Positions 5,198-39,912 of a stretch of DNA of 64,000 nt are shown in pieces. Each line of letters opens with the position of its first letter. The stretch's first letter is position 1. This DNA comes from Alphaproteobacteria bacterium (GTDB taxonomy: Bacteria > Pseudomonadota > Alphaproteobacteria > UBA828), in the NCBI GenBank assembly GCA_965214705.1, contig CBDCCI010000002.1, positions 416,001 to 480,000 on the forward strand, in the 5' to 3' direction. The position numbers and the translations under genes are program-made. The notes beneath the pieces are model-generated. The model was not told the DNA's origin and did no database searches. It saw nothing but the letters and a program-made list of their open reading frames with translations.

Positions 5198-5400
5198 TCG
5201 CGAGACCGCGCTGATCCAGACTGGCCGGACGCGGCCAGCGCTGGGCCGGGTGGCGAGTGGCCGAGCCTCTCACGGGCTGAAACACGCCGAGCAGGAGATG
5301 GGCCCCGCCTCCGGAACGCTGCGCCCGCAGCAAGCGGGATCGAGGGATGGTTCCGGCGCACCGCCGTTGAAAGAGAAACCTCCCGGATAAGAGTTGGGTA
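5198..5400 (+). ncRNA. Putative bridge/seekRNA region of IS110 copy A (3'-truncated)
   Basis: Conserved scaffold CGGACGCGGC..GTGGCCG-N9-NGGGCTGAAA..CGCCG-N7-GATGGGCCCCGCCTCCGGAACG..CCGGATAAGAG shared with the three other copies. Confidence 0.65.
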
Positions 5401-6036
5401 CGGGTGCCGAGCGTGGAGGAGGAGGACCGCAAGCGGTTGCTCCGTGAGCGTCGGCGGCTGGTGAAGGAGCGGACGTCGCTGACGAACTCGATCAAGGGGC
5501 TACTCAAGCTGCAGGGGGTCTTCGACTTGGATCCTCGGGCCAAGGAGTTCGAGGAGAAGTTCGCGGACGCGGTGACCGCATACGGCTCACTGTTCCCGCC
5601 GCGGGCGCGTCAGGAGATTCTGCGGCTTGTGGAGCGGCTGTCGCTCGTGCAGCGGCAGATCACGGCAGTCGAGGCCGAGCGGGATGCGGTTGTCCGCCAG
5701 GGCGCCGCTATCCCGGCGCCGGTCGCGCCGCAGCGAAGCGAGGAGCGGGCGGCGGCCAGGATCGCGACGTTGGCCCAGCTGAAGGGGATCGGCGCGAACG
5801 ACGCGATGCTGCTTGAGCACGAGATCTTCTACCGCGACTTCGGAAACCGCCGTGAGCTTGCGAGCTGGGTCGGGTTGACGCCGACCCCATGGTCGAGCGG
5901 GGACATGCAACGCGACCAGGGGATCGACCGCGACGGTCCGGCCTGGATCCGTGCCCTCCTCGTCCAAATGGCGTGGCGCTGGTTGCGCCATCAACCCGAC
6001 AGCGCGCTTAGCAAGTGGTTCGATGAGCGCACCGCC
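5401..6036 (+). pseudogene. IS110 transposase copy B, first part (5'-truncated, interrupted by the transposon at 6037)
   Basis: RVPSVEEEDRKRLLRERRRL..KWFDERTA; the frame resumes exactly at 10595 (GARGRIRRVMIV). Confidence 0.88.
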
Positions 6037-6346
6037 TGTTGTTTCGCACGTTATTTGACGCCGAATCTCCCAGATTATTTGACGTGATCGCTGCCCTGAT
6101 TTCCCAGATTGCTCGGTCTTTTCCGGATCGAAGCGTAGGAGCTCATGGTCTCTGCGGGCGGTCCGGGGTCGCTGTCTGATTGAGGTTTGGACTGGTGCTT
6201 GAGGAGGGCTGACGAGGTGTCGCGCGGCCGTCCACACGACGAAGTGCTGCCATGGCCTGAAGCAAGCTTCCGGCCACGGACTGGCCGCTCACTTGACGTA
6301 GTATCCCGGTGGAGGCGCAGCGCCTTCCGGACCGTTGGGGAGGGGT

Positions 6347-6408
6347 GGTTCCCGACGGCGGTTCCGGCTCGAACCCCTAGGCGTTGGCGGAACCGGGCTC
6401 CGGGAACC
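6347..6408. repeat. Bipartite inverted repeat GGTTCCCG..CGGTTCCG / CGGAACCG..CGGGAACC overlapping the stop of the AAA_25 gene (ori-like)
   Basis: Seen directly; central CCTAGG. The function is inferred. Confidence 0.5.
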
Positions 6409-7414
6409 GCGGGGCCTGCGGCCGACTGCTGCCGTTGGCGGCGGCGGCCGCCGCCCGCTTGTCCGCTGCGCCTGCGACGACGCTGTAGCCGCCCTCGGCG
6501 TTGCGCGCGACGCGACCCTCCTGGACGAGCTTTTGCAAGATTACGCCGACGGTCTTGTGCCGGGTCGCGGCGCGTTCCCGGATCTGGCGTTGCGAGAGCG
6601 GCGCCCCGGCGTCGGCGAGCGCCTTGAGAACGCGGCATTCGGGAGTTTCGGGCTGAGGCGGCCCGCCGGCCGGGGGCGGCTGGCGCAGCTGGAAGGAGGG
6701 CTCCTCTCCGTCTTCCTTGAGCTCGATCTCGATGTCGTCGAGACCGCGAGCGGCGCGATGCTCGACGGTCATGAGCGTCTGCCGGTCCCGGCGGCGCAGG
6801 TATAGATTCGAATCTCCCCAGGCGTGCAGCTCACTGCTGCCCCGCAGGGCCTGCCCCGGCCTCGTGGCCCCGCTCTTGCGGGCGTGATGGACGAGCAGCA
6901 CGGCGGTCTCGAAGCGGCGTTGCAGGTCGCGCAGGAAGCCGAGGATCGGGGCGACGTCTGCGACCGTGTTCTCGTCCACGCCGTGCAGGCGGACCAGGGG
7001 GTCGAGGACCACGAGGCGCGGTGCGATGCGCTCCACGGTCTGCTGCAGGCGGCGCCGGTCGTCGAGATGGTCGAGGCGCAGTGTGGGCACGTCGATAACG
7101 GCGATGTCGAGGGTCTCGAAGCGAGCGCCTGCGGCGCGGGCGATCCCCTGCAGGCGCTTGCGCACGAGGTGGCCGGCGTCTTCTGCGGCGAACATCAGGA
7201 CCGGACCGGGCCGGGCCGGGGCGAAGTGCCGCAGGCATGGAACGCCGGCGGCGACTGCGACCGCGAGGTCCAGCGCCAGGATGGACTTGCCGCACTTGGG
7301 CTCGCCGCCGACGATGCCGACGGCTTGCTCGCCCCACAGCGTGTCCACCAGCCATTGCTGCTCGCGCGGCCGCTCCTCCAGCTCGATCGGGGTGCGGGTC
7401 GGGAAGCCGGTCAT
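6377..7414 (-). CDS. AAA_25 / RecA-like (RepA helicase-like) ATPase with C-terminal winged HTH
   Basis: WLVDTLW, GEPKCGKS Walker A, AAED, LVVLDPL, LLVHHARK, LRGSSEL motifs; ATG overlaps the upstream stop (ATGA at 7411-7414). Confidence 0.82.
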   Translation of the reverse strand: MTGFPTRTPIELEERPREQQWLVDTLWGEQAVGIVGGEPKCGKSILALDLAVAVAAGVPCLRHFAPARPGPVLMFAAEDAGHLVRKRLQGIARAAGARFETLDIAVIDVPTLRLDHLDDRRRLQQTVERIAPRLVVLDPLVRLHGVDENTVADVAPILGFLRDLQRRFETAVLLVHHARKSGATRPGQALRGSSELHAWGDSNLYLRRRDRQTLMTVEHRAARGLDDIEIELKEDGEEPSFQLRQPPPAGGPPQPETPECRVLKALADAGAPLSQRQIRERAATRHKTVGVILQKLVQEGRVARNAEGGYSVVAGAADKRAAAAAANGSSRPQAPRFPEPGSANA

Positions 7415-8214
7415 GGCCGCAACTCCTCTAGCGCGTGCTGCAGGTGCTCGGCGCTGACGGTCCTCGCCTCGTCGAGGGCGGCGGCGGAGAGCGCGTAGTG
7501 GGCGATGCGGTTGATCTGGCGCGGCAGGCCGCGCGCGCTCTGGAACAGGGCCTCGACGGCGGGCTCCTCGAAGAGCGGCAGCTCGCATCCCGCGAGCCTG
7601 AGGCGGTGCTTGATGTAGGCGTCGACCTCATCTCGGTCGAGGCCGGTGAGATGATGGCGGACGACGAGGCGCTGGCTGAGGGATTCGTGCATCGCCATGG
7701 CGAGACGCCGCCTGAGCTCGGTCAGGCCGACGAGGACGAGGCACAGGCGCTGCTCCGAATCCATGGCGAAGTTGGTGAGCAGGCGCAGGTCCTCGAGCAC
7801 GTCGTTGCGCAGGTGATGGGCCTCGTCGATGACGAGGACCGGCAGCTGCTTGGCCTCGGTGACGAGGCGGGAGATCTCGTTGCGGATTGCCTGATGGGCC
7901 GAGGCGCGCGAGCGCTCGATGGGCAGGCCGAGCTCCCACGCGATCGATTTGTACATGTCGAGCACGTTGCCCGTGGTCAGCGAGACGTAGTGGACCCGGT
8001 AGAGGCCAGGGTGGAGCTGCGCCGTCAGGTGCCGGCAGGCGGTGGTCTTGCCGGAGCCCACCTCGCCGGTGAGCAGGCCGATACCGCGCAGCTCGATGAG
8101 GTGGCCGAGCCTGGCCTCGGCCTCGCGGCGCGCGTTGGACTCGAACAGCTCGTCGGTCTCTGTCGGGGTCTCGAAGGGCAGGCGGGTGAAAGCGAAGTGG
8201 CGCTGGTACATCAC
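7411..8214 (-). CDS. ExeA-like AAA+ ATPase (TnsC/MuB/IstB-type transposition helper)
   Basis: MY..HF.F...PF N-terminus, GEVGSGKT, VLVIDEAH, SQRL, GLPRQIN; translationally coupled to the transposase. Confidence 0.88.
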   Translation of the reverse strand: MMYQRHFAFTRLPFETPTETDELFESNARREAEARLGHLIELRGIGLLTGEVGSGKTTACRHLTAQLHPGLYRVHYVSLTTGNVLDMYKSIAWELGLPIERSRASAHQAIRNEISRLVTEAKQLPVLVIDEAHHLRNDVLEDLRLLTNFAMDSEQRLCLVLVGLTELRRRLAMAMHESLSQRLVVRHHLTGLDRDEVDAYIKHRLRLAGCELPLFEEPAVEALFQSARGLPRQINRIAHYALSAAALDEARTVSAEHLQHALEELRP

Positions 8215-9539
8215 TCGTCCTCCTTCTTGTCCTTGAGCTTGTGCATGGCCAGCGGCGAGGGCGGGGGCTCGGGCGCCGGGTCCTCGGCCTCGATCTCCCT
8301 GGCCGGATAGGTGCGCCTGACGGCGGTGTTGGCGTAGGCGTCGAGAGGGGTAGCCTTGCCGGCCGGCTTGCCGTCATGGACCACGTCGAGAGGGCGCGAG
8401 GGCGGCGCGGCCGGGTCGTAGCGCAGGGTGATCTTCTCGCCGACCAGCACGGTATCGACCTCGTAGACGCAGCCGTCGAGACTGACGGTGCGATCCTTGT
8501 AGACACGGCGCTTGGCCTCGAAGAGGAACAGATCGTCGAGGTCCATGGTGGCGTCGGGATAGCGCACGCCGGCCGAGGCCAGCGCCCACTGCTCGAGCGG
8601 GGTGCGCCCCTCGTCGAGGCCACGATGCGGGCTGTTGTGATACTCCCCCTCGATCCAGGCCCAGAGGCTGCGGTTGAGCGCCTCCAGGCTGTCGACGTCA
8701 TCGCCGAGGTGGCGAAGCCAGCCGGCCCGAAGGGTGCGGAAGAAGCGCTCGATCTTACCCTTTCCCGCTGGCTGGAACGCTCTTGCGTGAATCAACGCAA
8801 CGCCGAGCCTGGCGCAGACCAGGGAGAGATGACGGGAGCGGTAGGCGCTTCCGTTGTCGACGTACAAGCGGGCCGGGAGGCCGCGCCGGATCAGCGCGTC
8901 CTTGAACACCGGCAGGAACGCCGCAGTGTTCTCCGCCATGGCGAAGGCGGCGAACGGGATGACGCGGGTGGCGTCGTCGATGAAGGCGATCAGGTAGGTC
9001 TTGCGCCGGCTGCGGCCGTGCCGGACCTTGGGTCCGTGCATGACGTCGCTCATCCACATCTCGCCGGCATGCCGGAAGGCGAAGCGGCGGCGATCCGCCC
9101 CGTCGGGCGGCTTCTTGTCGAACAGGCCCTCGCGGCTGAAGAGGCGGTGCACGGTGGACGAGGCGAGCGGGTGGTCGATACCCTCCTCGTGAGCCTTCTG
9201 GATGATGGCGCGGACCGACAATGCGTCGTTCTCGGTCTTCAGCGCGATGAGGCGCTCGGCGACCTCGGGCGGCAGCCGCCGGGGCTTCCCCCGGTCGGTA
9301 CGGGGCTTGGGGTAGAGCGCGTCGAAGCCGCCGTAGCGGTAGTCCTTGATCCAGCGCCGCATGGTCTCGGCGGCGACCCGGGTCCTGGTGGTTCCGGGGA
9401 TTGTGTAGGTCTTCTCGGCTTTGGCGCGCATCATCGCGCCGGCACCCGGTGCACCCACGGGCAGATGTACCAGATCGGCGATGACGTCGTATCGGAAGAG
9501 CGCGATCTGTTGGCGAAGGTCGTCGTCTGAGCTGTTCAT
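8211..9539 (-). CDS. DDE transposase/integrase (rve, Mu-like C-terminal domain)
   Basis: WMSDVMHG, FIDDATR, YVDNGSAY, KGKIERFFRT, YHNSPHRGL, RRVYKDRTVSLDG. Confidence 0.92.
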   Translation of the reverse strand: MNSSDDDLRQQIALFRYDVIADLVHLPVGAPGAGAMMRAKAEKTYTIPGTTRTRVAAETMRRWIKDYRYGGFDALYPKPRTDRGKPRRLPPEVAERLIALKTENDALSVRAIIQKAHEEGIDHPLASSTVHRLFSREGLFDKKPPDGADRRRFAFRHAGEMWMSDVMHGPKVRHGRSRRKTYLIAFIDDATRVIPFAAFAMAENTAAFLPVFKDALIRRGLPARLYVDNGSAYRSRHLSLVCARLGVALIHARAFQPAGKGKIERFFRTLRAGWLRHLGDDVDSLEALNRSLWAWIEGEYHNSPHRGLDEGRTPLEQWALASAGVRYPDATMDLDDLFLFEAKRRVYKDRTVSLDGCVYEVDTVLVGEKITLRYDPAAPPSRPLDVVHDGKPAGKATPLDAYANTAVRRTYPAREIEAEDPAPEPPPSPLAMHKLKDKKEDE

Positions 9540-9584
9540 GGTGCGATCCTCGTTCAGGGACTCCCTGGCCCCGGGATCGTCACG

Positions 9585-10220
9585 CTACGAACTCTCCGGC
9601 GGCGGGTCCGGCCCCGCCCGTTGTTGGAACTGCGGTTTGCGATTCCCCACGTCGATGCCGTGGGGTTGGAAGCCCAAAGGCGCGGGCAGCGTCTGGAGCT
9701 GCCCGGCGACCAGGCCGCGCAGTTCCATCAACGCGCTGTCGCTCTTCAGACGCTCGCGCACCGCGCTCATGGTGGGCGCGCAGCCCGCGAGCAGGTCGGG
9801 GATCAGGCCGATGACGCGCACAAGCGCGTTGTGCACGAGCTTCAGCCTGCGGCGGATCCAACGCACGGCGCCGGGAAGCTCGATGGCGTCCTCGTCCTCG
9901 GGGCAGCGCACCTCGTCCGCTGCCTCCTCCAGGCTGCCGGCCTCCTCCGCCACGACAACAACCGCTTCCAGCGCATCGAGCGTGCCCGGCAGCCGCGCCG
10001 CCAGACAGTCGGCCAGCAGGCCGATGGTCGTATGGCTCTCACGGCAATACCAGCGAGGAACCCTTGCGCCGGGCGGGGTCTTCCGCTCGTAGGTGCCGTG
10101 GCTTGCCACAGAACATCCGCCGTGCGGGTGATTCGGGCAGCGCTCAAGCCTTGCGTCGCGCCACGCCTCGGTCTTAACGTATTCCTCGCTGGTGAGCCCC
10201 GTTTCGTAGCGAAGCTGCAC
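9585..10220 (-). CDS. Transposon-associated putative Zn-finger/HTH protein, 211 aa
   Basis: CPNH..GC..HGTYERK..RWYC..H cluster of Cys/His residues; first gene of the transposon operon. Confidence 0.65.
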   Translation of the reverse strand: MQLRYETGLTSEEYVKTEAWRDARLERCPNHPHGGCSVASHGTYERKTPPGARVPRWYCRESHTTIGLLADCLAARLPGTLDALEAVVVVAEEAGSLEEAADEVRCPEDEDAIELPGAVRWIRRRLKLVHNALVRVIGLIPDLLAGCAPTMSAVRERLKSDSALMELRGLVAGQLQTLPAPLGFQPHGIDVGNRKPQFQQRAGPDPPPESS

Positions 10221-10309
10221 CGGCCCTGGCCCGGCGGGAGTTGAGTCCCCCGGGCCTCTCTTTGCGGTTCAGTGAGAGGCCGAGATTACGGACGCTCCCC
10301 GGCGCCGCC

Positions 10310-10443
10310 AAGCTGTGGAGCCGTGGACGCGTCCTGCGGACCGATCGGCGTCCTGCGGACCGTGTGGACAGCCCTTGGACAAGCTGGCGCTTGCCCACCG
10401 CCTGACCACACTCGCCGATCTCGCGCCCACCGCTCCACAGCTT
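10310..10443. other. 134-nt rod-like hairpin in the transposon leader
   Basis: Nested stems AAGCTGTGGAGC/GCTCCACAGCTT, GTGGACGCG/CGCGCCCAC, GATCGGCG/CGCCGATC, GTGTGGACAG/CTGACCACAC, TGGACAAGC/GCTTGCCCA; two identical bulges GTCCTGCGGAC. Confidence 0.75.
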
Positions 10444-10594
10444 CAACAGCAATGAGGATTCTGCTGACGATCAAAAAAATGCCGCAGGCAGCGTCCTTCC
10501 CGCACTCGGCCACCATCCCGGGAAATCCACCAACCAATCAAAGTGAGAAAAAAACCCGTGCTTCTATCCGGCTAGACCGGAAAACAACACCGCC

Positions 10595-10711
10595 GGAGCC
10601 CGGGGACGCATTCGTCGAGTGATGATCGTGGCAGTCGCCCGCAAGCTGCTCATCGCGCTGTGGCGGTTCTCCGAGACCGGTCTCGTGCCGACGGGCGCTA
10701 GGCTCGCCTGA
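10595..10711 (+). pseudogene. IS110 transposase copy B, C-terminal part
   Basis: GARGRIRRVMIVAVARKLLIALWRFSETGLVPTGARLA*; in frame with 5401-6036. Confidence 0.88.
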
Positions 10712-10990
10712 CGCCGGGACCGCAACTCTCTAGCCCGGCCGGACGCGGCCGACGCTGGGCCGGGTGGCGAGTGGCCGAACTTCACCAGGGCTGAAATACG
10801 CCGAGTCGTAGATGGGCCCCGCCTCCGGAACGCTGCAGCCCGCAGCAAACGGGATTGAGGGACGGGTCCGGTGCATCGCCACCGGTCACCGCCCGGATAA
10901 AAGGTGGGTGTGCGCTCAAGCGCGACCGATAGCGAGCGTTCCGACCTGGCAACGCGCTGATCCGGTCAACCACGAGGGAGGAATGGCATG
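10712..10990 (+). ncRNA. Putative bridge/seekRNA region of IS110 copy B (terminus lost)
   Basis: Same scaffold as copy A with different variable segments (AACTTCACC, AGTCGTA). Confidence 0.65.
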
Positions 10991-10994
10991 CAGT

Positions 10995-11700
10995 GAAGCT
11001 CCGCTTCCATCCCCATCTGCACGTGGTCGTCCCCAACGCGGGCTTCGACGTCGCGAACGGCGAGTGGAAGACCGGGAGCGGCACCTTCCTTGCCCCCGTC
11101 AAGGTCCTCGCCAGCCTGTTCCGCCGCCGCTTCCTCGAAGACCTCGCCCGCGCCCATGGGCGGGGGGAGCTGGAGTTCCACGGCACCGTCGCCCATCTCG
11201 CCAACCCCGGCGAGTTCCACGCCGCCCTCGCCGCCGCCCGCGGCAGGGACTGGGTAGTCTACGCCAAGCGGCCCTTCCGCGGGCCGGCCCAGGTGTTCCG
11301 ATACCTCGCCCGCTACACCCACCGGATCGCCATCGGTGACAGCCGCATCACAGGCTTCGATGGCGAGACCGTCTCCTTCCGGCACCGGAAGCCGAAGCAG
11401 GCGGGGCAGAAGAAGCCGCGCTACGGCACCATGACTGTCAGCGCCGACGAGTTCATCCGCCGCTTCCTGCTCCATGTCCTTCCCGACGGGATGCACCGCA
11501 TCCGTCACTTCGGCATCCTCTCCAACGGATGCCGGACCACGACGTTGGCCAGCGCGCGCGAGGCTTTCGGCTCTATCGGCTGCCCCGACGATGAGTGTGT
11601 GGACGACGATGCGCCCGAAGGCCAACGTGAGCGTGACGAAGCAGCGGAGCCCGCGGCCGCTCCCGTCGCCTGTCCCGATTGCGGAGCGCCGCTGCGCCTC
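10995..11700 (+). pseudogene. IS91-like (HUH/Y2) transposase, 5'-truncated and interrupted by IS21
   Basis: FHPHLHVVVP, YLARYTHRIAI, FIRRFLLHVLP, CPDCG; near-identical protein to 50040..51290; resumes at 16157. Confidence 0.88.
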
Positions 11701-11800
11701 GCCCAGTCTCACCAATGTAGCCGGTGAATCTCACCCGAAGTAGCCGGCGAATCTCATCCAAAGTAGCCACCCGATCTCAGCAAAGTAGCCACCCCGGAGC
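11701..11800. repeat. IS21 end repeats (4 x ~22-23 bp)
   Basis: TCTCA-N4/5-(A/T)GTAGCC repeated in tandem. Confidence 0.85.
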
Positions 11801-12039
11801 GAAGCGACGCGGTTACGTTTTTGTGGGCGGTTCTCCCTCCGCGATTTCTCCGTGATCGGTACCACCGCCGAAGGCCCGGTGGCAAGGCGGTGGAGCATGG
11901 TGCGCGCGCGGCGCGTGAGACCCCTCACGCGTCTGGCGGCGCGCGCGCGCCATGCCTGGCACCATCCGTCCCGCCCCTCCGACGCCCCGGAGCGGAGCGA
12001 CGATCACGCCGCGCGCAGCGCGGCGCTCTGTAGTCGCGT

Positions 12040-12447
12040 TCATGCCTTTTTCCCTGCGGCAGCGTCGTCGATACGCATGGACGTGCCGTGCAGCTCGATG
12101 CGGATGGCACCATGGACGAGGCGGTCGAGGATGGCGTCGGCGACCGTGGGATCGTTGAGCTGGCGGTGCCAATCGGCCACCGGCAACTGGCTGGTGACGA
12201 TCACCGAGCGCCGGCCGAAGCGGTCGTCGAGGATTTCGAGGAGATCGCGCGCGCGAGCCGCATCGATGGGCGCGATGCCCCAGTCGTCGAGGATCAGCAC
12301 CTCGATGCGGGCGAGGTCGCGGTAGAGCTTCGGGATCGTGCCCTCGCCATGGGCGATGCGCAGCTCGGTGAGCAGCCTGGGCACGCGGTGGTACTGGGCG
12401 ATGTGGCCCTCGAGGCACGCCTTGTGGCCAAGGGCACAGGAGATCCA
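12040..12447 (-). pseudogene. istB: istB ATPase, 3' part
   Basis: ISCALGHKAC, LILDDWG, LLEILDDR, TSQLP..W, ADAILDRL, IELHGTSMR. Confidence 0.9.
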
Positions 12448-12554
12448 GATACCATGAGCACGGTGGCATCGAATCGCGTCTGGCAGTTAGAGAAGCTCGG
12501 AGAGAAGGCCAGCACCTTCTCTCCGAGCGGAATCGTCAACAACGGAGTGGACGG

Positions 12555-13751
12555 ATGTCGGATGGTCCAGACACGACCGCGCTGACAGGCGCAAGTAGTA
12601 GCACGATTTATGTCGCGGTGGAGATCAGCCTCAAATCGTGGATTGTGGGCGTGCATTGCCCGGATGCCTCGGGTGGCAGCATCAGCATCCACACACTGGC
12701 TGCTGCCGACACGGCGGGACTGTTGGATCTCGTCGGGTCGGTGCGGGAACGGGTGGCGAGGGAGCTCGGCGCCCGTCCTCGGGTGATGCTGACCTACGAG
12801 GCGGGCTACGAGGGGTTCTGGCTGGCCCGCGATATCGAGCGCCGTGACGCGGAGATCGATATCTTCATGAACGATCCGGCGAGCCTGCGGGTGAACCGGC
12901 GCGCCAAGAAGAAAAAGACCGACCGCATCGACGCGAGGAGAATGGTTCGGGCTCTGAAGGCATGGGACCAAGGCGATTCGGAGGCCATGTCCTGGGTGCG
13001 CGTGCCCGACGTGGACCGGGAGGACGCCAAGCGCCTGCTGCGCGAGAGGGACACGCTGATCAGCGAGCGTACCCGCGTCAACAACCGGATCAAAGGGCTC
13101 TTGCAGTTGCACGGCATCTTCGATCTGGCGCCGCGCAAGCCGGACTTCCTCGAACGCCTCGCGGCCGCGCGGACGGGCTATGGGGCGCCGTTGCCGCCGC
13201 GGGCGCGTGCGGAGATCGAGAGGGCGGTGCGGATGCTTCGCCTGGTTGAGGACCATATCGAGATGATCGAGGCCGAGAAGAAGGCCCTGCTGAAGGCTGG
13301 CCGGAAAACCCAGGACGCGACCGACGGTGACGGGACGGCGATGATCGCGGCGCTTACGCGCATCCACGGCATCGGCCTCAATGACGCCACACTGCTGGCT
13401 GGCGAGGTGTTCTATCGGGACTTCCGCAATCGCCGGGAGTTGGGCAGCTGGGCCGGGTTGACGTCGGTGCCGTGGGCGAGCGGAGATGTCGACCACGATC
13501 TTGGCATCAGCAAGGCCGGCCCCTCGCATGTCAGGAAGCACATGATCCAGATGGCCTGGCGCTGGTTGAAACTGCAACCGGAAAGCGCGATCACGAAGTG
13601 GTTCCATGCCTACGTCGCCAGGGATGCCGGTGGCGGGAGGGACCGGCGAGCGAGGAAGCGGGCGATCGTGGGGGTCGCGCGCAAGCTGCTGATCGCGCTG
13701 TGGCGCTATGCCACCCAGGGACTGGTGCCCGAGGGCGCCATCGTCTCCTGA
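12555..13751 (+). CDS. IS110-family RuvC-like (DEDD) recombinase/transposase, 398 aa
   Basis: YVAVEIS, YEAGYEGFW, KTDRIDA, GLTSVPWASG, VGVARKLLIALW. Confidence 0.93.
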   Translation: MSDGPDTTALTGASSSTIYVAVEISLKSWIVGVHCPDASGGSISIHTLAAADTAGLLDLVGSVRERVARELGARPRVMLTYEAGYEGFWLARDIERRDAEIDIFMNDPASLRVNRRAKKKKTDRIDARRMVRALKAWDQGDSEAMSWVRVPDVDREDAKRLLRERDTLISERTRVNNRIKGLLQLHGIFDLAPRKPDFLERLAAARTGYGAPLPPRARAEIERAVRMLRLVEDHIEMIEAEKKALLKAGRKTQDATDGDGTAMIAALTRIHGIGLNDATLLAGEVFYRDFRNRRELGSWAGLTSVPWASGDVDHDLGISKAGPSHVRKHMIQMAWRWLKLQPESAITKWFHAYVARDAGGGRDRRARKRAIVGVARKLLIALWRYATQGLVPEGAIVS

Positions 13752-14096
13752 GGACAGCAGCCGAACGAACAGGAGAATACAGGAGGTTCCGACGTGGTCG
13801 GACGCGGCCGCGGAGGATGCCGGGCAAGGCGTGTGACCGGGCAAGAGTTGGGTCGCCGCTTGGCACCGTTCTACAGATGGGTCCCGCCTCCCGGAACGTC
13901 GTTACCGCTTGGATGCGGTATTGGGGTCACGGAGCCGGCAAGCGCCGGAGTTCCGAACCGGATAAGAGCTGAGCAGCGTGACGAATCGCTGCGTGGGAAG
14001 GACGTTCTGCCTGGCCATCAACCGCGGACTCGAAGGGGAGAACAGGAATGCCATTGACGTAGATGAAGCCGGGCCTTGCGGAGAGAGCTCATAAGA
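13752..14096 (+). ncRNA. Putative bridge/seekRNA region of IS110 copy C
   Basis: CGGGCAAGAGTTGG (13838-13851) is the reverse complement of the reconstituted target CCAACTCTTGCCCG; GGTAT and ATAAGAG segments match the element ends; RNA boundaries unknown. Confidence 0.8.
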
Positions 14097-14450
14097 ACTC
14101 TTGCCCGTGCCGCACGGTCCGGTGATCAGGATGTTGGCGCCGTTGCGGACCCAGGCGCAGTCTGCGAGGCCGAGCACGAGACTGCGGTCGAGGCCGCGCG
14201 GACGGCTCAGGTTGATATCCTCGAAGCAGGCGTCCTGATGGCGCAGCTGCGCCCTCTTGAGGCGCCGCTGCAGGGCCCTGGAGCGGCGCTCGGCGATCTC
14301 GCGATCGATCAGCAGCGCGAGCCGATCCTCGAAGGGCATGTCGTCGAGGTCGTTGCGCGCCACCTGCTCGAGGAAGGCGGCGTGCATGCCTGGCAGGCGC
14401 AGCGAGGCGATGCGCTCGGCCAGCGGGTGGGAGACGGGGTTTTCGGTCAT
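14097..14450 (-). pseudogene. istB: istB ATPase, 5' part
   Basis: LRLPGM, FEDRLALLIDRE, RGLDRS, ITGPCGTGKS; ATG overlaps the istA stop. Confidence 0.9.
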
Positions 14451-15979: not shown

Positions 15980-16057
15980 CCCAGCCCCCCTCGGATGAGT
16001 CGCGAAATCCGACGGGTAGGACGGCGCTCTGAGTCGCACCAAAAGCCGCCGCCCCGA

Positions 16058-16155
16058 GGGGGTGGCTACTTTCGGTGAGACCGGGTGGCTACTTTCGGTG
16101 AGATTCGGCGGCTACTTTGCCTGAGATTGGGTGGCTACTTTCGTGAAATTCGGCA
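16058..16155. repeat. IS21 end repeats (4 x ~22-23 bp)
   Basis: GGCTACTTT-N3/4-TGAGA repeated; inverse of 11701-11800. Confidence 0.85.
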
Positions 16156-16156
16156 C

Positions 16157-16545
16157 GTCCGCCAGATCCCTCGCCAGCGTCCCGCCCACGCGAGCCGGGC
16201 GCCACCCGACGGGTGCCCGAACACGGGTCGCAGCCGTGGGTAATCCCTTCGCTTCAGCTTCGTGCGTCCGCGCCGTCCCGATGGCGAGCCAGATGACCCG
16301 TGCGCAATCTCACTCGCGGCCGAAGCCGTCCCGCCGGCTCAGGGCGATCTCCCCAATTCCTGTGACCATGGGCGTCGCGACGCTGGCGGAAACAGCAGCG
16401 TCGACCATAGGCATCCCGCCAATCGTCCCTTCGTAAGCGCGCCACCAGTGCACTTTCCACATACCGGCCACCCGAGCTCGGGGGCCCGCGGCTTCGTTCA
16501 ACCAGGTTGAGCAGGCTCTGGCGAACCTGCTCAACCCTAAAGATT
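16157..16545 (+). mobile_element. 3' remnant and terminus of the IS91-like element
   Basis: VRQIPRQRPAHASRAPP, then GCGGCTTCGTTCAA, hairpin GGTTGAGCAGG/CCTGCTCAACC and CCTAAAGATT, as in the terminus of the full copy at 49731. Confidence 0.82.
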
Positions 16546-19531: not shown

Positions 19532-19558
19532 CCTTTGTTCCGCACCTATCCGGTTAGC

Positions 19559-22360: not shown

Positions 22361-22368
22361 CGGGCCAC

Positions 22369-25258: not shown

Positions 25259-25314
25259 ACAAACGCGAACGGGGTTGGCCCGAGTGAGGAAAGCAAGCGG
25301 ATGACGGGCGAGCG

Positions 25315-28824: not shown

Positions 28825-28834
28825 CACGGAAGTC

Positions 28835-31109: not shown

Positions 31110-31110
31110 C

Positions 31111-32067: not shown

Positions 32068-32068
32068 T

Positions 32069-35041: not shown

Positions 35042-35043
35042 CC

Positions 35044-38000
35044 ATGCTGCGGGATCGCGAATGGCGGCTCAAATACACTGCCGAGGACGGCGATCTCGTC
35101 CGGCTGTTCTACATCCCGGCGCTTGAGGACGCGGAGCGCTACGATCGGCTGACCGGGTATTTCAACGCGGGCGCCCTGGCACTCGCTGCGCGCGGCATCG
35201 AAGGTCTGGTGCGAAACGACGGTCGCATGAGGCTCGTCGTCGGCTGTACCCTGGACCCGCCGGAGATCGACGCGATCGAGCGGGGCGAGCAACTCCGCAG
35301 CCTCGTCGAAAGGCGCCTGACCGGCTTTCCGCTTGCCCCGCCCGATCCGGCGTCGGCCGGCGCGCTTGAACTGCTGGCGTGGATGGTCGCGCGCGGATTC
35401 CTTGAAGTGAAGGTCGCCGTCCCTTGCGACGCGGCCGGCACGCCGGTCGCGGAGGACGGCATCTTTCACGAGAAGACCGGGATCGTCGAGGATCGGGTCG
35501 GCGACCGGCTCGCATGGTCGGGGAGCCTGAACGAGACCGGCGCCGGCTGGCGGAGCAACTGGGAGAGCATCGGCGTCTATACCAGTTGGGGACCCGAGCC
35601 CGGACGTGTCGATGAGGAGGAAACGAACTTCGCGCGCATCTGGGCCGGAAAGGCGAAGCGCGTGATCGTGATGGACGTGCCGGAGGCGGCACGCCGGGAT
35701 CTGATGCGCTTCATGCCGGCAACGGACATGCCGGCCCAACTTGAACCGAAGTCGGGCGACGAGCCGTCGGAGCGGTCCGTTGGCGATGCCGGGCCCCCGC
35801 CGCTTCCGGCCACGACTCCTGCTGCGCCGCCGAAGGGTGACTTGCGGGGCCGGGTCTGGAGATTCATTCGGGAGGCGCCGTCGCGTGCGCACGGCGGCGA
35901 GCGGGTCGGCGAGGCGACCGCGGCGGTCGATCCCTGGCCGCATCAGGCGAGGGCTTTCGAGCGCCTGTACGGCGACTGGCCGCCGAGGCTCCTGATTGCG
36001 GACGAGGTGGGGCTCGGCAAGACCGTCCAGGCGGGCATGCTGCTGCGCCAGGCTTGGCTCGCCGAACGCACCAGGCGCATCCTGGTGCTCACGCCCAAGG
36101 CCGTGCTCCGCCAATGGCAGATCGAACTGCGGGAGAAGTTCAACCTCAACTGGCCGATCTACGACGGCGGCAAGCTGACATGGTATCCGTCGCCGGCGAT
36201 GAGGGGCCGTGACGAGCGCGAGGCCGGACGCGGGGACTGGCATCGCGAGCCCGCCGTGATCGCGTCGAGCCAGTTGATGCGCCGGAGCGATCGCGTAGCG
36301 GAGCTCCTCGAACGGGCGGAGCCGTGGGATCTGGTGGTGCTCGACGAGGCGCATCACGCGCGGCGGCGCGGCGCGGGCAGCCAGCGCGACGGCGGGCCCA
36401 ACACGCTGCTCAGGCTGATGCGGGGCCTGAAGGACCGCACGGCGGGGCTGGTCCTGCTGACCGCGACGCCGATGCAGGTACACCCCATAGAGGTCTGGGA
36501 CCTGCTCGACCTGCTGGGTTTGCCGCCCGAATGGACATCGAAGGCGTTTCTCGAGTTCTTCGACAATGTCGATCAGCCGAGCCCCTCGGCGGAGGCGTTG
36601 GAGCGGATGGCTTCGCTATTCAAGGCGGCGGAGCGTGCCTACGGCGAGTTCGAGATTTCCGATGCGCAGCGCATGACGGGGCTGTCCCGGCTGAAGGTCA
36701 AAAGGGTTCTCAGTGCGTTGCGCGACGCGGCGAGCATTCCACGCCGGCAACTGGAGACCGCTGAACGACGGGCGGCAGTCGACATCATGCGTGCGGGGGC
36801 GCCGATACGCAGGCTGGTCTCGAGGAACACCCGCGAACTGCTTCGGCGCTACTTCCAGAAAGGAATGATGACCACGCCGGTCGCGGAGCGTCAGGTAGAG
36901 GATTGCTTCCTGGAGGTGTCGGACGCGGAACGCGGCATCTACGACGCGGTCGAGGACTACATCGCCGGCGCGTACAGCCGCGCGAGCGGCAAGGAGCGCA
37001 CGGCCGTAGGGTTCGTCATGACGGTCTACCGCCGACGGCTCGCCAGCAGCTTCGTGGCGCTGCGCGAGACGCTGCAGAAGCGCCGCGCCGCGATCGATGA
37101 CGGGGGACGCTCGGAACTGTTCGGCCTCGACGAGGACCTCCCGGACGACGAAGCCGCGGATGAAGCGGCCGATCCCGACGAGGCGGCAAGACTCGAACGG
37201 AGCGCCCTCGCCCACGAACAGAAAGCCGAGATCGACGGTCTGCTCGGCGCGATCGGCCGCCTGCCGCCGGACAGCAAGCTCGGCAGCCTCAAGGACGTTC
37301 TGCGCGAACTGCGCCGGGCGGGCTACGGCCAGGCGATGGTGTTCACCCAGTACACCGATACCATGGACTTCCTGCGCGAGGCGCTGGTCGAAGACGGCGA
37401 ATGGCGGCTGCTCTGCTTCTCCGGGCGCGGCGGCGAAGCGCCTGGAGCGGACGGCGCGTGGCGCACTATCGGCAGGGACGATGCGAAACGGCGGTTCCGG
37501 GACCGGGAAGCCGACGTGCTGCTGTGCACCGACGCGGCGGCCGAGGGCCTGAACTTCCAGTTCTGCGGCGCGCTGGTGAATTACGACATGCCGTGGAACC
37601 CCATGCGGGTGGAGCAGCGCATCGGACGCATCGACCGGTTGGGTCAGAAGCACGCGACCATCCGCATCATCAACCTGCACTACGAGGGGACGGTGGAAAC
37701 CGATATCTACCGCGCTCTCCGGGATCGCATCGGCCTCTTCCAGTCCGTGGTGGGGCCGCTGCAGCCAATTCTTGCCCGTTTGCCCGGGAGAATTTCGCAG
37801 TGCGTGCTTGCCGGCAAAGGCCGTGACGCTCGCGAGCGCGCAAATCTCGTCGATACCATCGAACGCGAGGCGAACGAACGCCGCGACTCGGGGTTCAATA
37901 TCGACGCGATAACGGAGAGCGATCTCGCCATGCCGGAGCGTCTGCCGTCGACCGTCACCATGGAGGACCTGGACCGAATAGTCGGATCCGGCGATCTCAT

Positions 38001-38232
38001 GGCGCCGGGCGTCGAAATCCAGCGGATGGGGCATCGGGAGTACGGTCTGCTGGCGCCGGGCATGAGCGAGCCGCTTCGTGTGACGACGGATCCGGAGTAT
38101 TTCGAGGAGCACGCCGAAAGCGTGGAACTCTGGTCGCCTGGCAATCCCCTCTTCATTGCGCCGGAGTTCGCGGACGGTGTGGATCTGGACCCGTCGCACG
38201 GGACGCTGAAGGACATCCTGGATGGGGGTTGA
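35044..38232 (+). CDS. PLD-nuclease / SNF2-family helicase fusion
   Basis: FHEKTG..SGSLNET (PLD-like), ADEVGLGKT, DEAH, LLTATPMQ, EGLNFQ, NYDMPWNP..EQRIGRIDR. Confidence 0.92.
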   Translation: MLRDREWRLKYTAEDGDLVRLFYIPALEDAERYDRLTGYFNAGALALAARGIEGLVRNDGRMRLVVGCTLDPPEIDAIERGEQLRSLVERRLTGFPLAPPDPASAGALELLAWMVARGFLEVKVAVPCDAAGTPVAEDGIFHEKTGIVEDRVGDRLAWSGSLNETGAGWRSNWESIGVYTSWGPEPGRVDEEETNFARIWAGKAKRVIVMDVPEAARRDLMRFMPATDMPAQLEPKSGDEPSERSVGDAGPPPLPATTPAAPPKGDLRGRVWRFIREAPSRAHGGERVGEATAAVDPWPHQARAFERLYGDWPPRLLIADEVGLGKTVQAGMLLRQAWLAERTRRILVLTPKAVLRQWQIELREKFNLNWPIYDGGKLTWYPSPAMRGRDEREAGRGDWHREPAVIASSQLMRRSDRVAELLERAEPWDLVVLDEAHHARRRGAGSQRDGGPNTLLRLMRGLKDRTAGLVLLTATPMQVHPIEVWDLLDLLGLPPEWTSKAFLEFFDNVDQPSPSAEALERMASLFKAAERAYGEFEISDAQRMTGLSRLKVKRVLSALRDAASIPRRQLETAERRAAVDIMRAGAPIRRLVSRNTRELLRRYFQKGMMTTPVAERQVEDCFLEVSDAERGIYDAVEDYIAGAYSRASGKERTAVGFVMTVYRRRLASSFVALRETLQKRRAAIDDGGRSELFGLDEDLPDDEAADEAADPDEAARLERSALAHEQKAEIDGLLGAIGRLPPDSKLGSLKDVLRELRRAGYGQAMVFTQYTDTMDFLREALVEDGEWRLLCFSGRGGEAPGADGAWRTIGRDDAKRRFRDREADVLLCTDAAAEGLNFQFCGALVNYDMPWNPMRVEQRIGRIDRLGQKHATIRIINLHYEGTVETDIYRALRDRIGLFQSVVGPLQPILARLPGRISQCVLAGKGRDARERANLVDTIEREANERRDSGFNIDAITESDLAMPERLPSTVTMEDLDRIVGSGDLMAPGVEIQRMGHREYGLLAPGMSEPLRVTTDPEYFEEHAESVELWSPGNPLFIAPEFADGVDLDPSHGTLKDILDGG

Positions 38233-38346
38233 TCGACCGTCGATGTGGGAACGGTTTCGGGCCTGATGTCGGCGGCGTGAACCGGGCGAGCGAAGACTTG
38301 GGCAATCGGAATCGAACAGGAGGCTACTGCGATCACACTGTCCTTC

Positions 38347-38440
38347 GTGTTGCTCGGCGCGTAGATTGCACGCCGATCGGCGCGATAAGCTATTGAAGTG
38401 GCTTGATACTAGGGGGTCACAATTGCACCCCGAGCAACAC
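38347..38440. repeat. 94-bp MITE-like unit with IS21-like ends
   Basis: 11-bp IR GTGTTGCTCGG / CCGAGCAACAC; sits where IS110 copy D loses its 5' end. Confidence 0.55.
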
Positions 38441-38444
38441 TCTC

Positions 38445-39413
38445 GACCGAGAGGTGCGCGTCCTGTGCTGCTACGAGGGCTTCTGGCTGGCTCGCTGGCT
38501 GGAACAGAAGATGTCCATCGAGACGGTGGTGCTCGATCCGGCGAGCCTGTTGGTGAACCGGAAGGCGAAGCAGCGCAAGACGGATCGGATCGATGCGAAG
38601 AAGATGGTGCGCGCCCTTCTCGCCCATGACCGGGGTGACGCCGCAGTGCTGAGCCGTGTGCGGGTTCCGAGCGTCGAGGAGGAGGATCGCAAGCGGCTGC
38701 TTCGCGAGCGTCGGCGCCTGGTGAAGGAGCGGACCTCGCTGACCAACTCGATCAAGGGGCTGCTGAAACTGCACGGCATCTTCCACTTGAACCCTCGTCT
38801 CAAAGCCTTTGAGGCGCAGTTCGCCGAGTTGATGACCGCGTGCGGCTCGCCGCTCCCGCCGCTAGCACGGCAGGAGATCGAGCGGCTCAAAGAGCGACTG
38901 TCCCTCGTGGAGCGGCAGATCGCAGAGGTCGAGGCCGAGCGAGATGGAGTCGCGAAGACGGGTGCGGAGTTCTCGATCGCGGACGCGCCGGAAGGCAGCA
39001 ACGAACAGGCGGCGGCGAAGATTGCAACGCTGACCCGGCTGAAGGGGATCGGTGAGAACGACGCGACTGTGCTCACCCATGAGATCTTCTACCGCGGCTT
39101 CCGCAATCGCCGCGAGCTCGCGGCCTGGGTCGGCGTGACGCCCGCGCCTTGGGCGAGCGGGAACACTCAGCGGGACCAGGGGATCGGCCGAGATGGCCCC
39201 GGCTGGATCCGGCAGCAGCTCATCCAAATGGCCTGGCGATGGTTGCAACATCAGCCCGAGAGCGCGCTCTCGATATGGTTTGAAGATCGCACTGCAGGAG
39301 CGCGAGGGCGGATACGCCGGGTGATGATCGTCGCTCTCGCCCGGAAGCTGCTGATCGCTCTCTGGCGGTTCTCCGAAACCGGTCTCGTGCCGACAGGCGC
39401 CAAGCTTGTCTGA
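38445..39413 (+). pseudogene. IS110 transposase copy D, 5'-truncated, with YEAGYEG collapsed to YEG
   Basis: KTDRIDAKK, RVPSVEEED, GVTPAPWASG, ALARKLLIALW. Confidence 0.88.
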
Positions 39414-39750
39414 CCGCGAGACCTCATCATTCCAGTGCAGTCGGACGCGGCTGGCACTGGGCCGGGTGGCGAGTGACCGGGTATTCGCTGGGCTGAAAGA
39501 CGCCGTAAATCAGAGTGGTCCCGCCTCCGGAACGCTGCGCCCGCAGCAAGCGGGATTGGGGGACGGATCCGGCACACCCTTGCCGGCAACCGCCCGGATA
39601 AGAGCTTGGTATGCGCACTTGAGGCGCGACCGGTGCAAGAAGCGTTCGACCCGGTGGCGAAAGCGACTAGCGATCCTGCCAACTCAGAGGAGGCGAGGCA
39701 TGTGATAGCCAGCGCTAGCCTTCTGACTTGACCCAGACAGCCCCATAAGA
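39414..39750 (+). ncRNA. Putative bridge/seekRNA region and right end of IS110 copy D
   Basis: Same scaffold; ends CATAAGA like copy C; segment TATTCGCT (39482-39489) is 7/8 complementary to the flank AGCAAATA (39750-39757). Confidence 0.72.
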
Positions 39751-39912
39751 GCAAATAAGCGCACTATTCGACAGTCATCAACACCGAGTGCAAACTGAGT
39801 CCCCGAACCTGTTCTTCAATTCGCAACCAACTACCGCTCCAAGAGCGATATTGTAAGACGGCAATTGACCTATCTACACTCTTTCGCGCGTGGCGCTCAT
39901 TTTCGCCTACAT

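What the first reader, a model, noticed from the sequence alone, without database searches (positions are those of the whole stretch)
5198..39757. Four paralogous IS110 RNA scaffolds with naturally swapped guide segments
Seen: copies A (5198), B (10712), C (13752) and D (39414) share GTGRCCG-[N9]-NGGG..CCG-[N7]-GA..GG.CCCGCCT.CCGGAACG..CCGGATAA. The N9/N7 segments are AGCCTCTCA/AGCAGGA, AACTTCACC/AGTCGTA, GGCAAGAGT/TTCTACA and GGTATTCGC/TAAATCA. In D, the only other copy with its right end intact, TATTCGCT is 7/8 complementary to the flank AGCAAATA in the same register as in C, which supports the guide reading independently. All N7 segments end in A, matching the single shared A at the junction of C. 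Inference: an in-genome library of guides for one recombinase clade. The truncated copies keep the RNA part and might act in trans.
Basis: partly seen in the sequence, partly recalled or inferred. Interest (0 to 1): 0.82.

Follow-up and report, generated by a model that had tools for sequence, protein, structure and literature searches.

The report
Guide RNAs of IS1111-type insertion sequences
The four repeats are the guide-RNA genes that sit behind the transposase in a known class of RNA-guided jumping genes, and their two variable stretches spell out each element's landing site, so this is a clear but ordinary example of a mechanism described in 2024.

Summary
Copies A, B, C and D share the stated scaffold, and each lies directly 3' of an IS110-family transposase gene or remnant.

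- The genome carries 32 such RNA genes with 9 guide pairs.
- In 73 of 80 related loci from other bacteria the same scaffold follows the transposase gene.
- Variation peaks at N9 and at the first six bases of N7.
- N9 is complementary to the right flank and N7 is identical to the left flank. No permutation out of 10,000 reached the observed match.
- A second, conserved 7-mer in the RNA repeats the element's own right end.
- The fold shows compensatory changes in 21 of 44 pairs.

This is the IS1111-type seekRNA/bridge RNA. Natural re-direction between relatives is already published (PMC11187229).

The "library acting in trans" idea is not supported. A, B and D are decayed relics of separate insertion-sequence species. 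B is part of a copy split by a 4.56-kb insertion. I found no promoter next to any copy and no evidence that they are expressed.

Verdict: a new member of a known kind, of modest interest.

The parts
4668..5397 (+). Element A, a relic. It has a left end, an internal deletion of about 730 bp, the 3' part of the transposase gene and most of the RNA gene. The right end is missing.
   Evidence: BLAST against the intact relative E: E positions 671-784 match window 4666-4780 and E 1515-2141 match 4776-5402. The ORF carries Pfam PF02371 only. Left junction read.
5252..5397 (+). RNA gene of A. Target loop 5252-5312 (right guide N9 5264-5272 plus C 5273; left guide 5290-5295 plus core AG 5296-5297). Donor 7-mer at 5387-5393. 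The 3' strand of the long-range helix is lost.
   Evidence: Fold of the target loop. A's left flank TGCTGG-AG matches its left guide AGCAGG-AG at 4 of 6.
5396..6036 (+). 5' half of the copy that carries B. It is an internal transposase fragment and the left end is missing.
   Evidence: Matches relative F positions 1185-1824 at 90%. Pfam PF02371. Contigs in runs X3 and X4 join 6029 to 10588 with 7 shared letters.
6037..10587 (.). 4.56-kb insertion that splits the B copy. It looks like a transposon.
   Evidence: The ORFs carry rve plus Mu-transposase C-terminal domains, and AAA_25. Bounds.
10588..10990 (+). 3' half of the B copy: transposase tail and RNA gene. About 45 nt of the right end are missing.
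   Evidence: Matches F positions 1818-2184. Comparison with relative G.
10766..10943 (+). RNA gene of B. Right guide 10778-10786, left guide 10804-10809 plus core AG 10810-10811, donor 7-mer 10897-10903, 3' strand of the long-range helix 10935-10943.
12447..14096 (+). Element C, a complete 1.65-kb IS. The boundary is ambiguous by one A. It sits inside an IstB-like gene.
   Evidence: An empty site at C1:621479 joins the two flanks. A contig in run X1 joins 12446 to 14096. The transposase gene 12555-13751 has PF01548 and PF02371 and NF033542 at 174.5 bits.
13828..14009 (+). RNA gene of C. Right guide 13840-13849, left guide 13869-13874 plus core 13875-13876, donor 7-mer 13962-13968, 3' strand of the long-range helix 14001-14009.
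   Evidence: The right flank 14096-14105 is 10 of 10 complementary to the right guide. The left flank matches at only 2 of 6.
38440..39751 (+). Element D, a relic that is 5'-truncated (no left end, and the transposase lacks its N-terminus). The RNA gene and right end are intact. Core AG at 39750-39751.
   Evidence: Homology to E, F and G starts at window 38440. The Pfam match to PF01548 starts at profile position 69. Right end read.
39468..39648 (+). RNA gene of D. Right guide 39480-39489, left guide 39506-39511 plus core 39512-39513, donor 7-mer 39598-39604, 3' strand of the long-range helix 39641-39648.
39752..39784 (+). Right flank of D. It is a diverged copy of the end of another repeat that occurs four times in the genome and carries D's predicted target.
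   Evidence: The predicted 16-mer is found four times with 2 mismatches. D's flank is 23 of 33 identical to that repeat end, counted by eye on the print-out.

Best explanation
**What they are.** A, B, C and D are the RNA genes of four insertion sequences of the IS110 family, in the IS1111-type layout: short left end, DEDD transposase gene, then a roughly 335-nt non-coding right end that encodes a bridge RNA (seekRNA) of about 180 nt.

**The fold.** The RNA has two domains.
- Domain 1 is a stem with a large internal loop. The 5' strand of the loop (N9 plus one base) pairs with the top strand of the DNA just right of the insertion point; a C in it pairs with the G of the AG core. The 3' strand (the first six bases of N7, then AG) has the sequence of the DNA just left of the insertion point plus the core, so it pairs with the bottom strand.
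- Domain 2 is closed by a 9-bp long-range helix. It carries a single-stranded 7-mer that repeats the element's own right terminus plus core. A short stretch in it is complementary to the first bases of the left end. Together these would recognise the excised circle's junction.

**How it works.** The recombinase, loaded with this RNA, inserts the circle at the AG core in one orientation, without duplicating the target.

**Why the copies differ.** They belong to different IS species whose guides have diverged. They now aim at different sites, mostly inside other mobile elements. Only C is intact in the window; A, B and D are wrecks.

**Shown here:** the complementarities, the covariation, the element boundaries and the empty sites.

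**Inferred from the published family (PMC11187229, PMC11208160):** that the RNA is made, binds the transposase and directs recombination.
For: **Setting**
- All four copies follow an IS110-family transposase gene or remnant.
- The same scaffold follows the gene in 73 of 80 related loci.

**Boundaries fixed independently of the guides**
- C: an empty site at C1:621479.
- E: empty sites at C1:603304 and C3:3041043. F: several empty sites.
- The empty sites give a 2-nt AG core in E and F and a single shared A in C. No further duplication is seen.

**Guides against flanks in this genome**
- E: left CCTTCAG matches; right 9 of 9 in one copy.
- G: left 9 of 9.
- F: left 10 of 10.
- C: right 10 of 10.
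- C2: right 8 of 9.

**Guides against flanks across genomes**
- Right: 30 of 44 distinct guides match at 6 or more of 8. Mean 5.59 against 2.44 permuted; 0 of 10,000 permutations reach it.
- Left: 19 of 23 match at 4 or more of 6. Mean 4.52 against 1.85; 0 of 10,000.

**Where the variation lies**
- Entropy peaks at N9 and at N7 positions 1-6.
- Pairs of scaffolds that are 0.80-0.90 identical outside the guides are only 0.32-0.35 identical in the guides.

**Donor side**
- The RNA 7-mer, in five variants, recurs exactly 30-300 nt downstream in 44 of 51 distinct elements. In 43 of the 44 it sits at the right terminus next to the subterminal repeat.
- In this genome F, G and B carry one variant and E, D, A and C another. 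The right ends of F, G, E, D and C match their own RNA.
- The left-end stretch covaries in three lineages: ATCC/GGAU, ATACC/GGUAU and ATGCC/GGCAU.

**Structure**
- 44 pairs; 91.9% of cells are paired, against 84.1% in shuffles and 30-47% when partners are slid.
- 21 pairs have changes on both sides.
- The outer stem of the target loop is 99.7% paired. The long-range helix is 93.2% paired with 4 covarying pairs.
Against: **Guide-flank exceptions**
- F's right flank matches its right guide at 0 of 8.
- Window C's left flank matches at 2 of 6.
- G and C2 match well only if the right guide is slid by one base. The register of the right guide is therefore not fixed.
- 5 of 44 right guides score 1 of 8 under my fixed rule.

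**Donor side**
- The left-end donor stretch is only 4-5 nt long and overlaps the 3' strand of a hairpin. It is 4 of 5 in two further lineages. That half of the donor loop is not secure.

**Thermodynamics**
- Single-sequence folds of the target loop are no more stable than shuffles (z from -0.2 to -1.0). C's minimum-energy fold differs from the consensus.

**Other gaps**
- No RNA or binding data exist for this organism.
- Rfam gave no match at gathering score.
- phmmer found no solved structure.
- The transposases are 395-398 aa, longer than the 330-350 aa the seekRNA paper gives for IS1111.
Confidence: 0.93

Rival explanations
1. One reading: the copies form a working repertoire. The truncated copies A, B and D still make guide RNAs that load onto transposases of intact relatives (E, F, G) in trans and send their circles to additional sites.
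For: - B keeps the whole RNA, including the long-range helix. D keeps the RNA and the right end.
- Intact relatives with 83% identical transposases exist in the genome.
- B's donor 7-mer is the F/G variant; A's and D's is the E variant.
- An NCR-derived RNA supplied in trans supports transposition of ISEc11 (PMC11187229, passages seen).
Against: - No sigma-70-like promoter was found in 4600-14200 or in 38200-39900.
- The published view is co-transcription with the transposase gene (PMC11187229, Discussion). That gene is broken or beheaded in A, B and D.
- A has lost the 3' strand of the helix that closes the donor domain.
- The same paper reports that the donor's own flanks had to match the guides. 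A foreign guide would then not excise an E or F copy.
- No insertion of E, F or G sits at an A-, B- or D-type site. The best matches to the predicted A and B targets are no more numerous than for shuffled strings, or are scattered in coding sequence.
Confidence: 0.06
2. N9 and N7 are merely fast-evolving unpaired loops of a structural RNA or of the IS end. They have no role in target choice, and the flank matches in C and D are coincidence.
For: Large internal loops are free to vary.
Against: - The cognate guide-flank match far exceeds permuted pairings for both halves: 0 of 10,000 permutations each.
- A and its nearest relatives change one half while keeping the other.
- Empty sites show that the matched bases are target DNA, not part of the element.
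Confidence: 0.01

Closest known systems
IS1111-family seekRNA (ISEc11, ISPa11, ISKpn4, ISPst6; Siddiquee et al. 2024, PMC11187229; abstract and sections 6, 9, 10, 13, 14 read)
   Same: - The RNA is encoded in the long non-coding region 3' of a DEDD transposase gene.
- Subterminal inverted repeats lie inside short terminal extensions.
- There are two short target matches, and the top-strand match is 5' of the bottom-strand match.
- The two matches overlap at the insertion point.
- There is no target duplication.
- Insertion goes into repeated or mobile DNA.
- Relatives share the stem but differ in the guide segments (the paper's ISEc11/ISXne4 'natural re-direction').
   Different: - The transposases here are 395-398 aa, against the 330-350 aa stated for IS1111.
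- The conserved RNA domain extends to about 180 nt and includes a covarying long-range helix and a 7-mer copy of the right end. The paper found an 82-96 nt short form sufficient and left the role of the long form open.
- No experiment has been done on these elements.
IS621 / IS110-group bridge RNA (Durrant et al. 2024, PMC11208160, IS1111 passages read; Hiraizumi et al. 2024, PMC11208158, listing only)
   Same: - A two-domain RNA with a target-binding loop whose two strands read the two sides of the target on opposite DNA strands.
- A second domain that reads the element's own joined ends.
- A dinucleotide core shared by target and donor.
- That paper predicts bridge RNAs in the right end of 93% of IS1111-group elements.
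   Different: - The RNA is in the right end, not the left.
- The order of the guides is reversed.
- The core is AG, not CT. The CT core of IS621 is recalled, not seen in a call.
- The left-end half of the donor loop is short and only weakly supported here.
- There is no detectable sequence similarity to solved structures.
ISPpu9 / Ssr9 of Pseudomonas putida (Pares-Guillen et al. 2025, PMC12288879; abstract read)
   Same: An IS110-family element with a small-RNA gene 3' of the transposase gene. Extra RNA-gene copies without a transposase gene occur elsewhere in the same genome.
   Different: There the solo RNA modules move as their own circles, and Ssr9 was not needed for transposition. Here the solo RNA copies are explained by ordinary decay: deletions and an insertion. 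I found no sign that they move on their own.

Membership tests
IS110 family (RNA-guided DEDD transposase) | The transposase has the DEDD/RuvC-like N-terminal domain and the IS116/IS110/IS902 C-terminal domain. | tested here: met
   C carries PF01548 and PF02371, and so does the D remnant. NCBIfam NF033542 'IS110 family RNA-guided transposase' scores 192.1 bits (E) and 174.5 bits (C) against a cut-off of 140.
IS110 family (RNA-guided DEDD transposase) | Insertion at a specific sequence, in one orientation, without a target-site duplication. | tested here: met
   Empty sites for C, E and F leave only a 1-2 nt shared core. 19 occupied and 68 empty copies of one 20-mer target exist for the C type.
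IS1111 group | Subterminal inverted repeats of 7-17 bp inside short terminal extensions. | tested here: met
   E has TATGGGGC at the left and GCCCCATA at the right. F has TATGAGGC and GCCTCATA. These are 8 bp and covary, set 4 nt in from the left end and 2 nt plus core from the right. The same holds in most related loci.
IS1111 group | The long non-coding region, and the RNA, lie downstream of the transposase gene. | tested here: met
   The scaffold starts 40-60 nt after the stop codon in all four window copies and lies 3' of the gene in 73 of 80 loci.
IS1111 group | The top-strand target match lies 5' of the bottom-strand match in the RNA. | tested here: met
   N9, complementary to the top strand of the right flank, precedes N7, identical to the top strand of the left flank.
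IS1111 group | Transposase of about 330-350 aa (range given in PMC11187229, section 6). | tested here: not met
   395-398 aa. I treat this as a size variant, not an exclusion. The GL-P----SG motif named in that section is visible in the translation, read by eye.
Bridge RNA (two-loop architecture) | A target-binding internal loop with two guides reading opposite strands on either side of a core. | tested here: met
   The outer stem is 99.7% paired with 4 covarying pairs. The loop strands match the flanks.
Bridge RNA (two-loop architecture) | A donor-binding part that matches both ends of the element. | tested here: inconclusive
   The right-end side is met: the 7-mer recurs in 44 of 51 elements, in five covarying variants. 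The left-end side is only 4-5 nt. It is perfect in three lineages and 4 of 5 in two, and it overlaps a hairpin strand.
Bridge RNA / seekRNA | The RNA is transcribed, binds the recombinase and is needed for transposition. | not testable with these tools
   Only metatranscriptome contigs from relatives (90-95% alike) could be laid. They cannot show a transcript of this strain.
Rfam families | A match to a curated covariance model at its gathering score. | tested here: not met
   0 matches in the whole window. This says only that no model in the library reaches its threshold.

The most novel reading that the evidence does not exclude
The decayed copies are not inert. RNAs from B and D, and perhaps A, load onto the closely related transposases of the intact E, F and G elements. 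The genome would then hold a multi-guide repertoire that widens where those elements can land. A related, somewhat likelier point is that one matching half-site may be enough for natural integration: F has a perfect left match and no right match, and window C the reverse. The two halves would then be exchanged independently (A against L013 and L061).
Probability: 0.08. Interest if true: 0.6.

Novelty: new member of a known kind. Interest (0 to 1): 0.3.

Why it matters
The mechanism itself is not new. RNA-guided target choice by IS1111/IS110 elements, and natural re-direction between relatives, were published in 2024.

What this locus adds is a compact natural data set for an uncharacterised alphaproteobacterial branch with longer transposases:
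- Nine guide pairs occur in one genome, and 44 across relatives, each with its flanks.
- There is a simple rule for reading the target from the RNA: six bases, then AG, then the reverse complement of N9, with a C set on the core G.
- There is covariation support for a long-range helix and for a right-end-matching 7-mer in the long form of the RNA. The seekRNA paper left the role of that long form open.
- Close relatives have changed only one guide half.

This may help annotators predict IS targets. It may also help people who engineer bridge recombinases to choose scaffolds with known tolerated variation.

Tried and rejected
**Rfam.** A search of the whole window at gathering score gave 0 matches.

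**Solved structures.** phmmer of the E transposase against PDB sequences gave 0 matches.

- There is no second copy of either in this genome.
- There is none in 43 other genomes of the same family, allowing up to 2 mismatches.
- An exact 21-mer scan of metagenome contigs gave 3 stretches. None has the scaffold downstream. They are chance matches. The test remains undone.

**Predicted targets in this genome.**
- A: 0 sites with up to 2 mismatches; 16 with up to 3, against 11-32 for five shuffles.
- B: 8 sites with up to 2 mismatches; 100 with up to 3, against 2-25 for shuffles. They are scattered and not in a repeat, so I draw nothing from this.
- Only D's prediction led somewhere.

**Expression.**
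- The run search offered five RNA runs holding 0.05-0.08 of the sampled words.
- Laying four of them gave contigs that were mostly 90-95% alike, that is, from relatives. They say nothing about transcription of A, B or D in this strain.
- A contig of run X4 covers 13185-14014, including C's RNA region, with 53 other letters. That is presence in an RNA library only.

**Promoters.** The scan found 0 sigma-70-like sites near any copy. The scan is crude, and other promoter types are not covered.

**Single-sequence folding.** Folds of the four target loops have weak z-scores. I rely on covariation instead.

**RNAalifold.** On 11 sequences from this genome it gave a poor donor domain. I replaced it with a hand-drawn structure tested on 39 sequences.

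**Closed or failed calls.**
- Supplementary files of the papers were not opened. Supplementary Figs 6-9 of PMC11187229 (long seekRNA folds) may bear on whether the long-range helix and the right-end 7-mer are already drawn there.
- timed out and was redone.

**Rows dropped before the counts.**
- Hits with no exact downstream recurrence of the 7-mer.
- Hits with an insertion or deletion in the N9 columns.
- Hits whose right-end context lacked the conserved triplet.
- For the left side, hits with no inverted-repeat partner 1,000-1,900 nt upstream, or whose left end did not begin with the usual four bases.
- Only the first flank listed for each distinct guide was kept.
- This left 72 right pairs giving 44 guides, and 35 left pairs giving 23 guides.

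Full report
**The observation.**
- The GTGRCCG anchor lies at window 5257, 10771, 13833 and 39473.
- The N9/N7 strings are letter for letter those given.
- The four regions align with 72% mean column identity.
- Each lies 40-60 nt after the stop codon of an IS110-family transposase gene or its remnant. Pfam finds PF01548 and PF02371 in C and D, and PF02371 only in A and in the fragment at 5404-6087. NCBIfam NF033542 'IS110 family RNA-guided transposase' scores above its cut-off.
- The RNA therefore sits 3' of the gene. The papers read here give that as the IS1111-type arrangement (PMC11187229 sections 6 and 9; PMC11208160 passages).

**What stands in the window.**
- Only C is complete: 12447/8 to 14095/6, 1.65 kb. 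An empty copy of its site at C1:621479 joins the two flanks with one shared A. A contig of run X1 makes the same join.
- A (4668-5397) has a left end, an internal deletion of about 730 bp, and an RNA gene that breaks off just after the donor 7-mer.
- B is not a lone stub. Window 5396-6036 and 10588-10990 match consecutive parts of relative F. Contigs in two runs join 6029 to 10588 with seven shared letters.
- They are therefore one 5'-truncated copy split by a 4.56-kb insertion. That insertion encodes rve/Mu-type transposase and AAA_25 proteins. The copy has also lost about 45 nt of its right end.
- D (38440-39751) has lost its left end and the N-terminus of its transposase. It keeps the RNA gene and the right end.

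**The genome as a natural experiment.**
- The laid genome has 3 contigs and 7.92 Mb. It holds 30 scaffolds that fit a strict pattern, two more full ones (G and C4) and two fragments.
- The nine guide pairs are: the C type (20 copies), two C-like variants, A, B, D, E (3 copies), F (3 copies) and G.
- Boundaries come from copy-to-copy comparison and from empty sites, not from the guides.
- E and F show an AG present once in the empty site and at both junctions of the occupied site. Nothing else is duplicated.
- The left end is AG-ATCC followed by an 8-bp repeat. The right end is the inverted 8-bp repeat, then two bases, then AG. The 8-bp repeats covary between E and F.

**Guides against flanks in this genome.**
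- E: the left flank ends CCTTCAG, which equals N7 plus G. In one of its three copies, the right flank after the core is the exact reverse complement of N9, 9 of 9.
- G: left 9 of 9.
- F: left 10 of 10.
- C: right 10 of 10.
- C2: right 8 of 9.
- A: its surviving left flank matches its left guide at 4 of 6.

**Guides against flanks across genomes.**
- A search with the transposase alignment returned 80 loci, mostly alphaproteobacterial assemblies.
- A profile of the scaffold found it just after the gene in 73 of the 80. That is 78 hits and 54 distinct sequences.
- I used one flank per distinct guide and a fixed register rule: a C of the guide sits on the core G.
- Right guides: 30 of 44 match their own flank at 6 or more of 8 positions. 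The mean is 5.59, against 2.44 with flanks permuted. No permutation of 10,000 reaches it.
- Left guides: 19 of 23 match at 4 or more of 6. The mean is 4.52, against 1.85. Again 0 of 10,000.
- The rows dropped before these counts are listed under Tried and rejected.

**Results against the simple picture.**
- F's right flank scores 0 of 8.
- Window C's left flank scores 2 of 6.
- G and C2 fit only with the right guide slid by one base.
- Five right guides score 1 of 8 under the fixed rule. At least one of them, L031, fits in the other register.
- So the right-guide register is not rigid. Some surviving insertions match on one side only.

**Variation is not uniform.**
- Column entropy over the distinct scaffolds peaks at N9, at the first six bases of N7 and in one hairpin that covaries. 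The seventh base of N7 and the next base (AG) are nearly invariant.
- Scaffold pairs that are 0.80-0.90 identical outside the guides are 0.32 and 0.35 identical in N9 and N7. That is close to the values for the most distant pairs.
- A's nearest relatives show the halves changing separately. L013: scaffold 0.96, N9 0.33, N7 0.83. L061: scaffold 0.95, N9 0.89, N7 0.33.

**Structure.**
- I drew a structure by hand and tested it on 39 sequences aligned by reference only.
- Of its 44 pairs, 91.9% of cells form standard pairs. Shuffles give 84.1% (0 of 500 reach the observed value). Sliding the partners gives 30-47%.
- 21 pairs have changes on both sides.
- The outer stem of the target loop is 99.7% paired with 4 covarying pairs.
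- A 9-bp long-range helix closes the second domain. It joins the bases just after the target loop to a stretch about 45-50 nt beyond the donor 7-mer. It is 93.2% paired with 4 covarying pairs.
- The control has limits that the tool states. Related sequences can beat shuffles without any structure, and I derived the structure from these sequences.
- Single-sequence folds of A, B and D give the expected stem, open loop and inner hairpin, but they are no more stable than shuffles. C folds otherwise.

**The donor side.**
- A single-stranded 7-mer in the second domain recurs exactly 30-300 nt downstream in 44 of 51 distinct elements.
- In 43 of the 44 it sits at the right terminus, beside the subterminal repeat. 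The remaining case, L015, picks up the RNA motif itself.
- All five sequence variants of the 7-mer do so.
- In this genome F, G and B carry one variant and E, D, A and C another. The right ends of F, G, E, D and C agree with their own RNA.
- A 4-5 nt stretch upstream is complementary to the first bases of the left end. This holds in three lineages with different left ends. It is 4 of 5 in two more, and it overlaps a hairpin strand. I count that half as suggestive only.

**Where the elements land.**
- The C-type target is a 20-mer inside the Y2 (IS91-family) transposase gene of a high-copy element: 68 empty and 19 occupied copies.
- F sits in another multi-copy IS. An unoccupied copy of that site lies in the window near 1112-1114.
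- E's site also recurs.
- D's predicted 16-mer occurs four times with two mismatches, each about 33 nt from the end of one repeat. D's own right flank is a diverged copy of that end, 23 of 33 by eye.
- Landing in other mobile or repeated DNA is a known habit of the family (PMC11187229 section 12 passage; titles cited).

**The trans-acting library.**
- In its favour: B and D keep complete RNA genes; intact relatives exist; and the published ISEc11 RNA works when supplied in trans.
- Against it: A has lost the closing helix; the transposase genes upstream are broken; no promoter-like site was found; and the published model has the RNA co-transcribed with the gene and needs the donor's flanks to match the guides.
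- I found no expression data for this strain.
- I put this idea at a few per cent.

**Comparison and verdict.**
- Everything essential matches the IS1111-type seekRNA/bridge RNA: its position, the subterminal repeats, the order of the two target matches, the lack of duplication, and guide replacement between relatives.
- The ISEc11/ISXne4 pair in PMC11187229 section 10 is the same phenomenon.
- The transposases are longer than that paper's stated range (395-398 aa). No Rfam model or solved structure matches by sequence.
- The finding is real and correctly read in its core. It is a new member of a known kind.
- Its value is as a clean comparative data set, and for the donor-side features of the long RNA form.

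Noticed in passing
window 450-1222: Part of another multi-copy IS that carries an unoccupied F-type target (..GGCAAG|GAGCTG..) near 1112-1114. Compared with other empty copies it lacks one AG.
   Followed up: partly
window 6037-10587: A 4.56-kb transposon-like insertion with a 7-letter overlap at its joints. It splits an IS110-family copy. Its ORFs carry rve plus Mu-transposase C-terminal domains, and AAA_25/MarR_2. Relatives of it are heavily represented in coral and other metatranscriptome contigs.
   Followed up: partly
window 10993-11727, and G000 C1:4300-8000 (L093): A Y2/IS91-family transposase fragment abuts B's truncated right end. The full element (a phage-integrase-like gene plus a Y2 transposase gene) has about 87 copies in the genome. 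19 of them are interrupted by the C-type IS at one 20-mer in the zinc-binding domain region.
   Followed up: partly
window 13902-16042 (- strand): Element C interrupts an IstB-like ATPase gene that lies next to a Mu-transposase-C_2 protein gene, an IS21-like pair. An intact copy of the site is at C1:621479. Here the right half-site matches C's guide perfectly and the left half does not.
   Followed up: partly
G000 C3:1762100-1764300 (L004); C3:525800-527700; C3:532900-534700: All three F copies carry a right guide that matches none of their right flanks, while the left guide is a 10 of 10 match. Two of the copies lie 7,034 bp apart with identical upstream sequence, which suggests a segmental duplication.
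   Followed up: partly
window 38345-38440: A repeat of about 95 bp, found at several other places in the genome (D query 873-971), lies exactly where element D is truncated.
   Followed up: no
window 35044-38232: A 1,062-aa ORF with PLD-like, SNF2-related and helicase C-terminal domains lies just upstream of D. Its function was not examined.
   Followed up: no
right ends of E, F, G and D (for example window 39727-39732): A -35-like hexamer (TTGACA, TTGACT or TTGACC) lies about 20 nt from the right terminus. This fits the junction promoter that the family forms when the ends are joined in the circle. No -10 partner was identified.
   Followed up: no
L020 (4240 and 4639), L057 (4195 and 4561): Two scaffold copies lie about 370-400 nt apart behind one transposase gene. 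This suggests tandem duplication of the RNA gene in other genomes.
   Followed up: no
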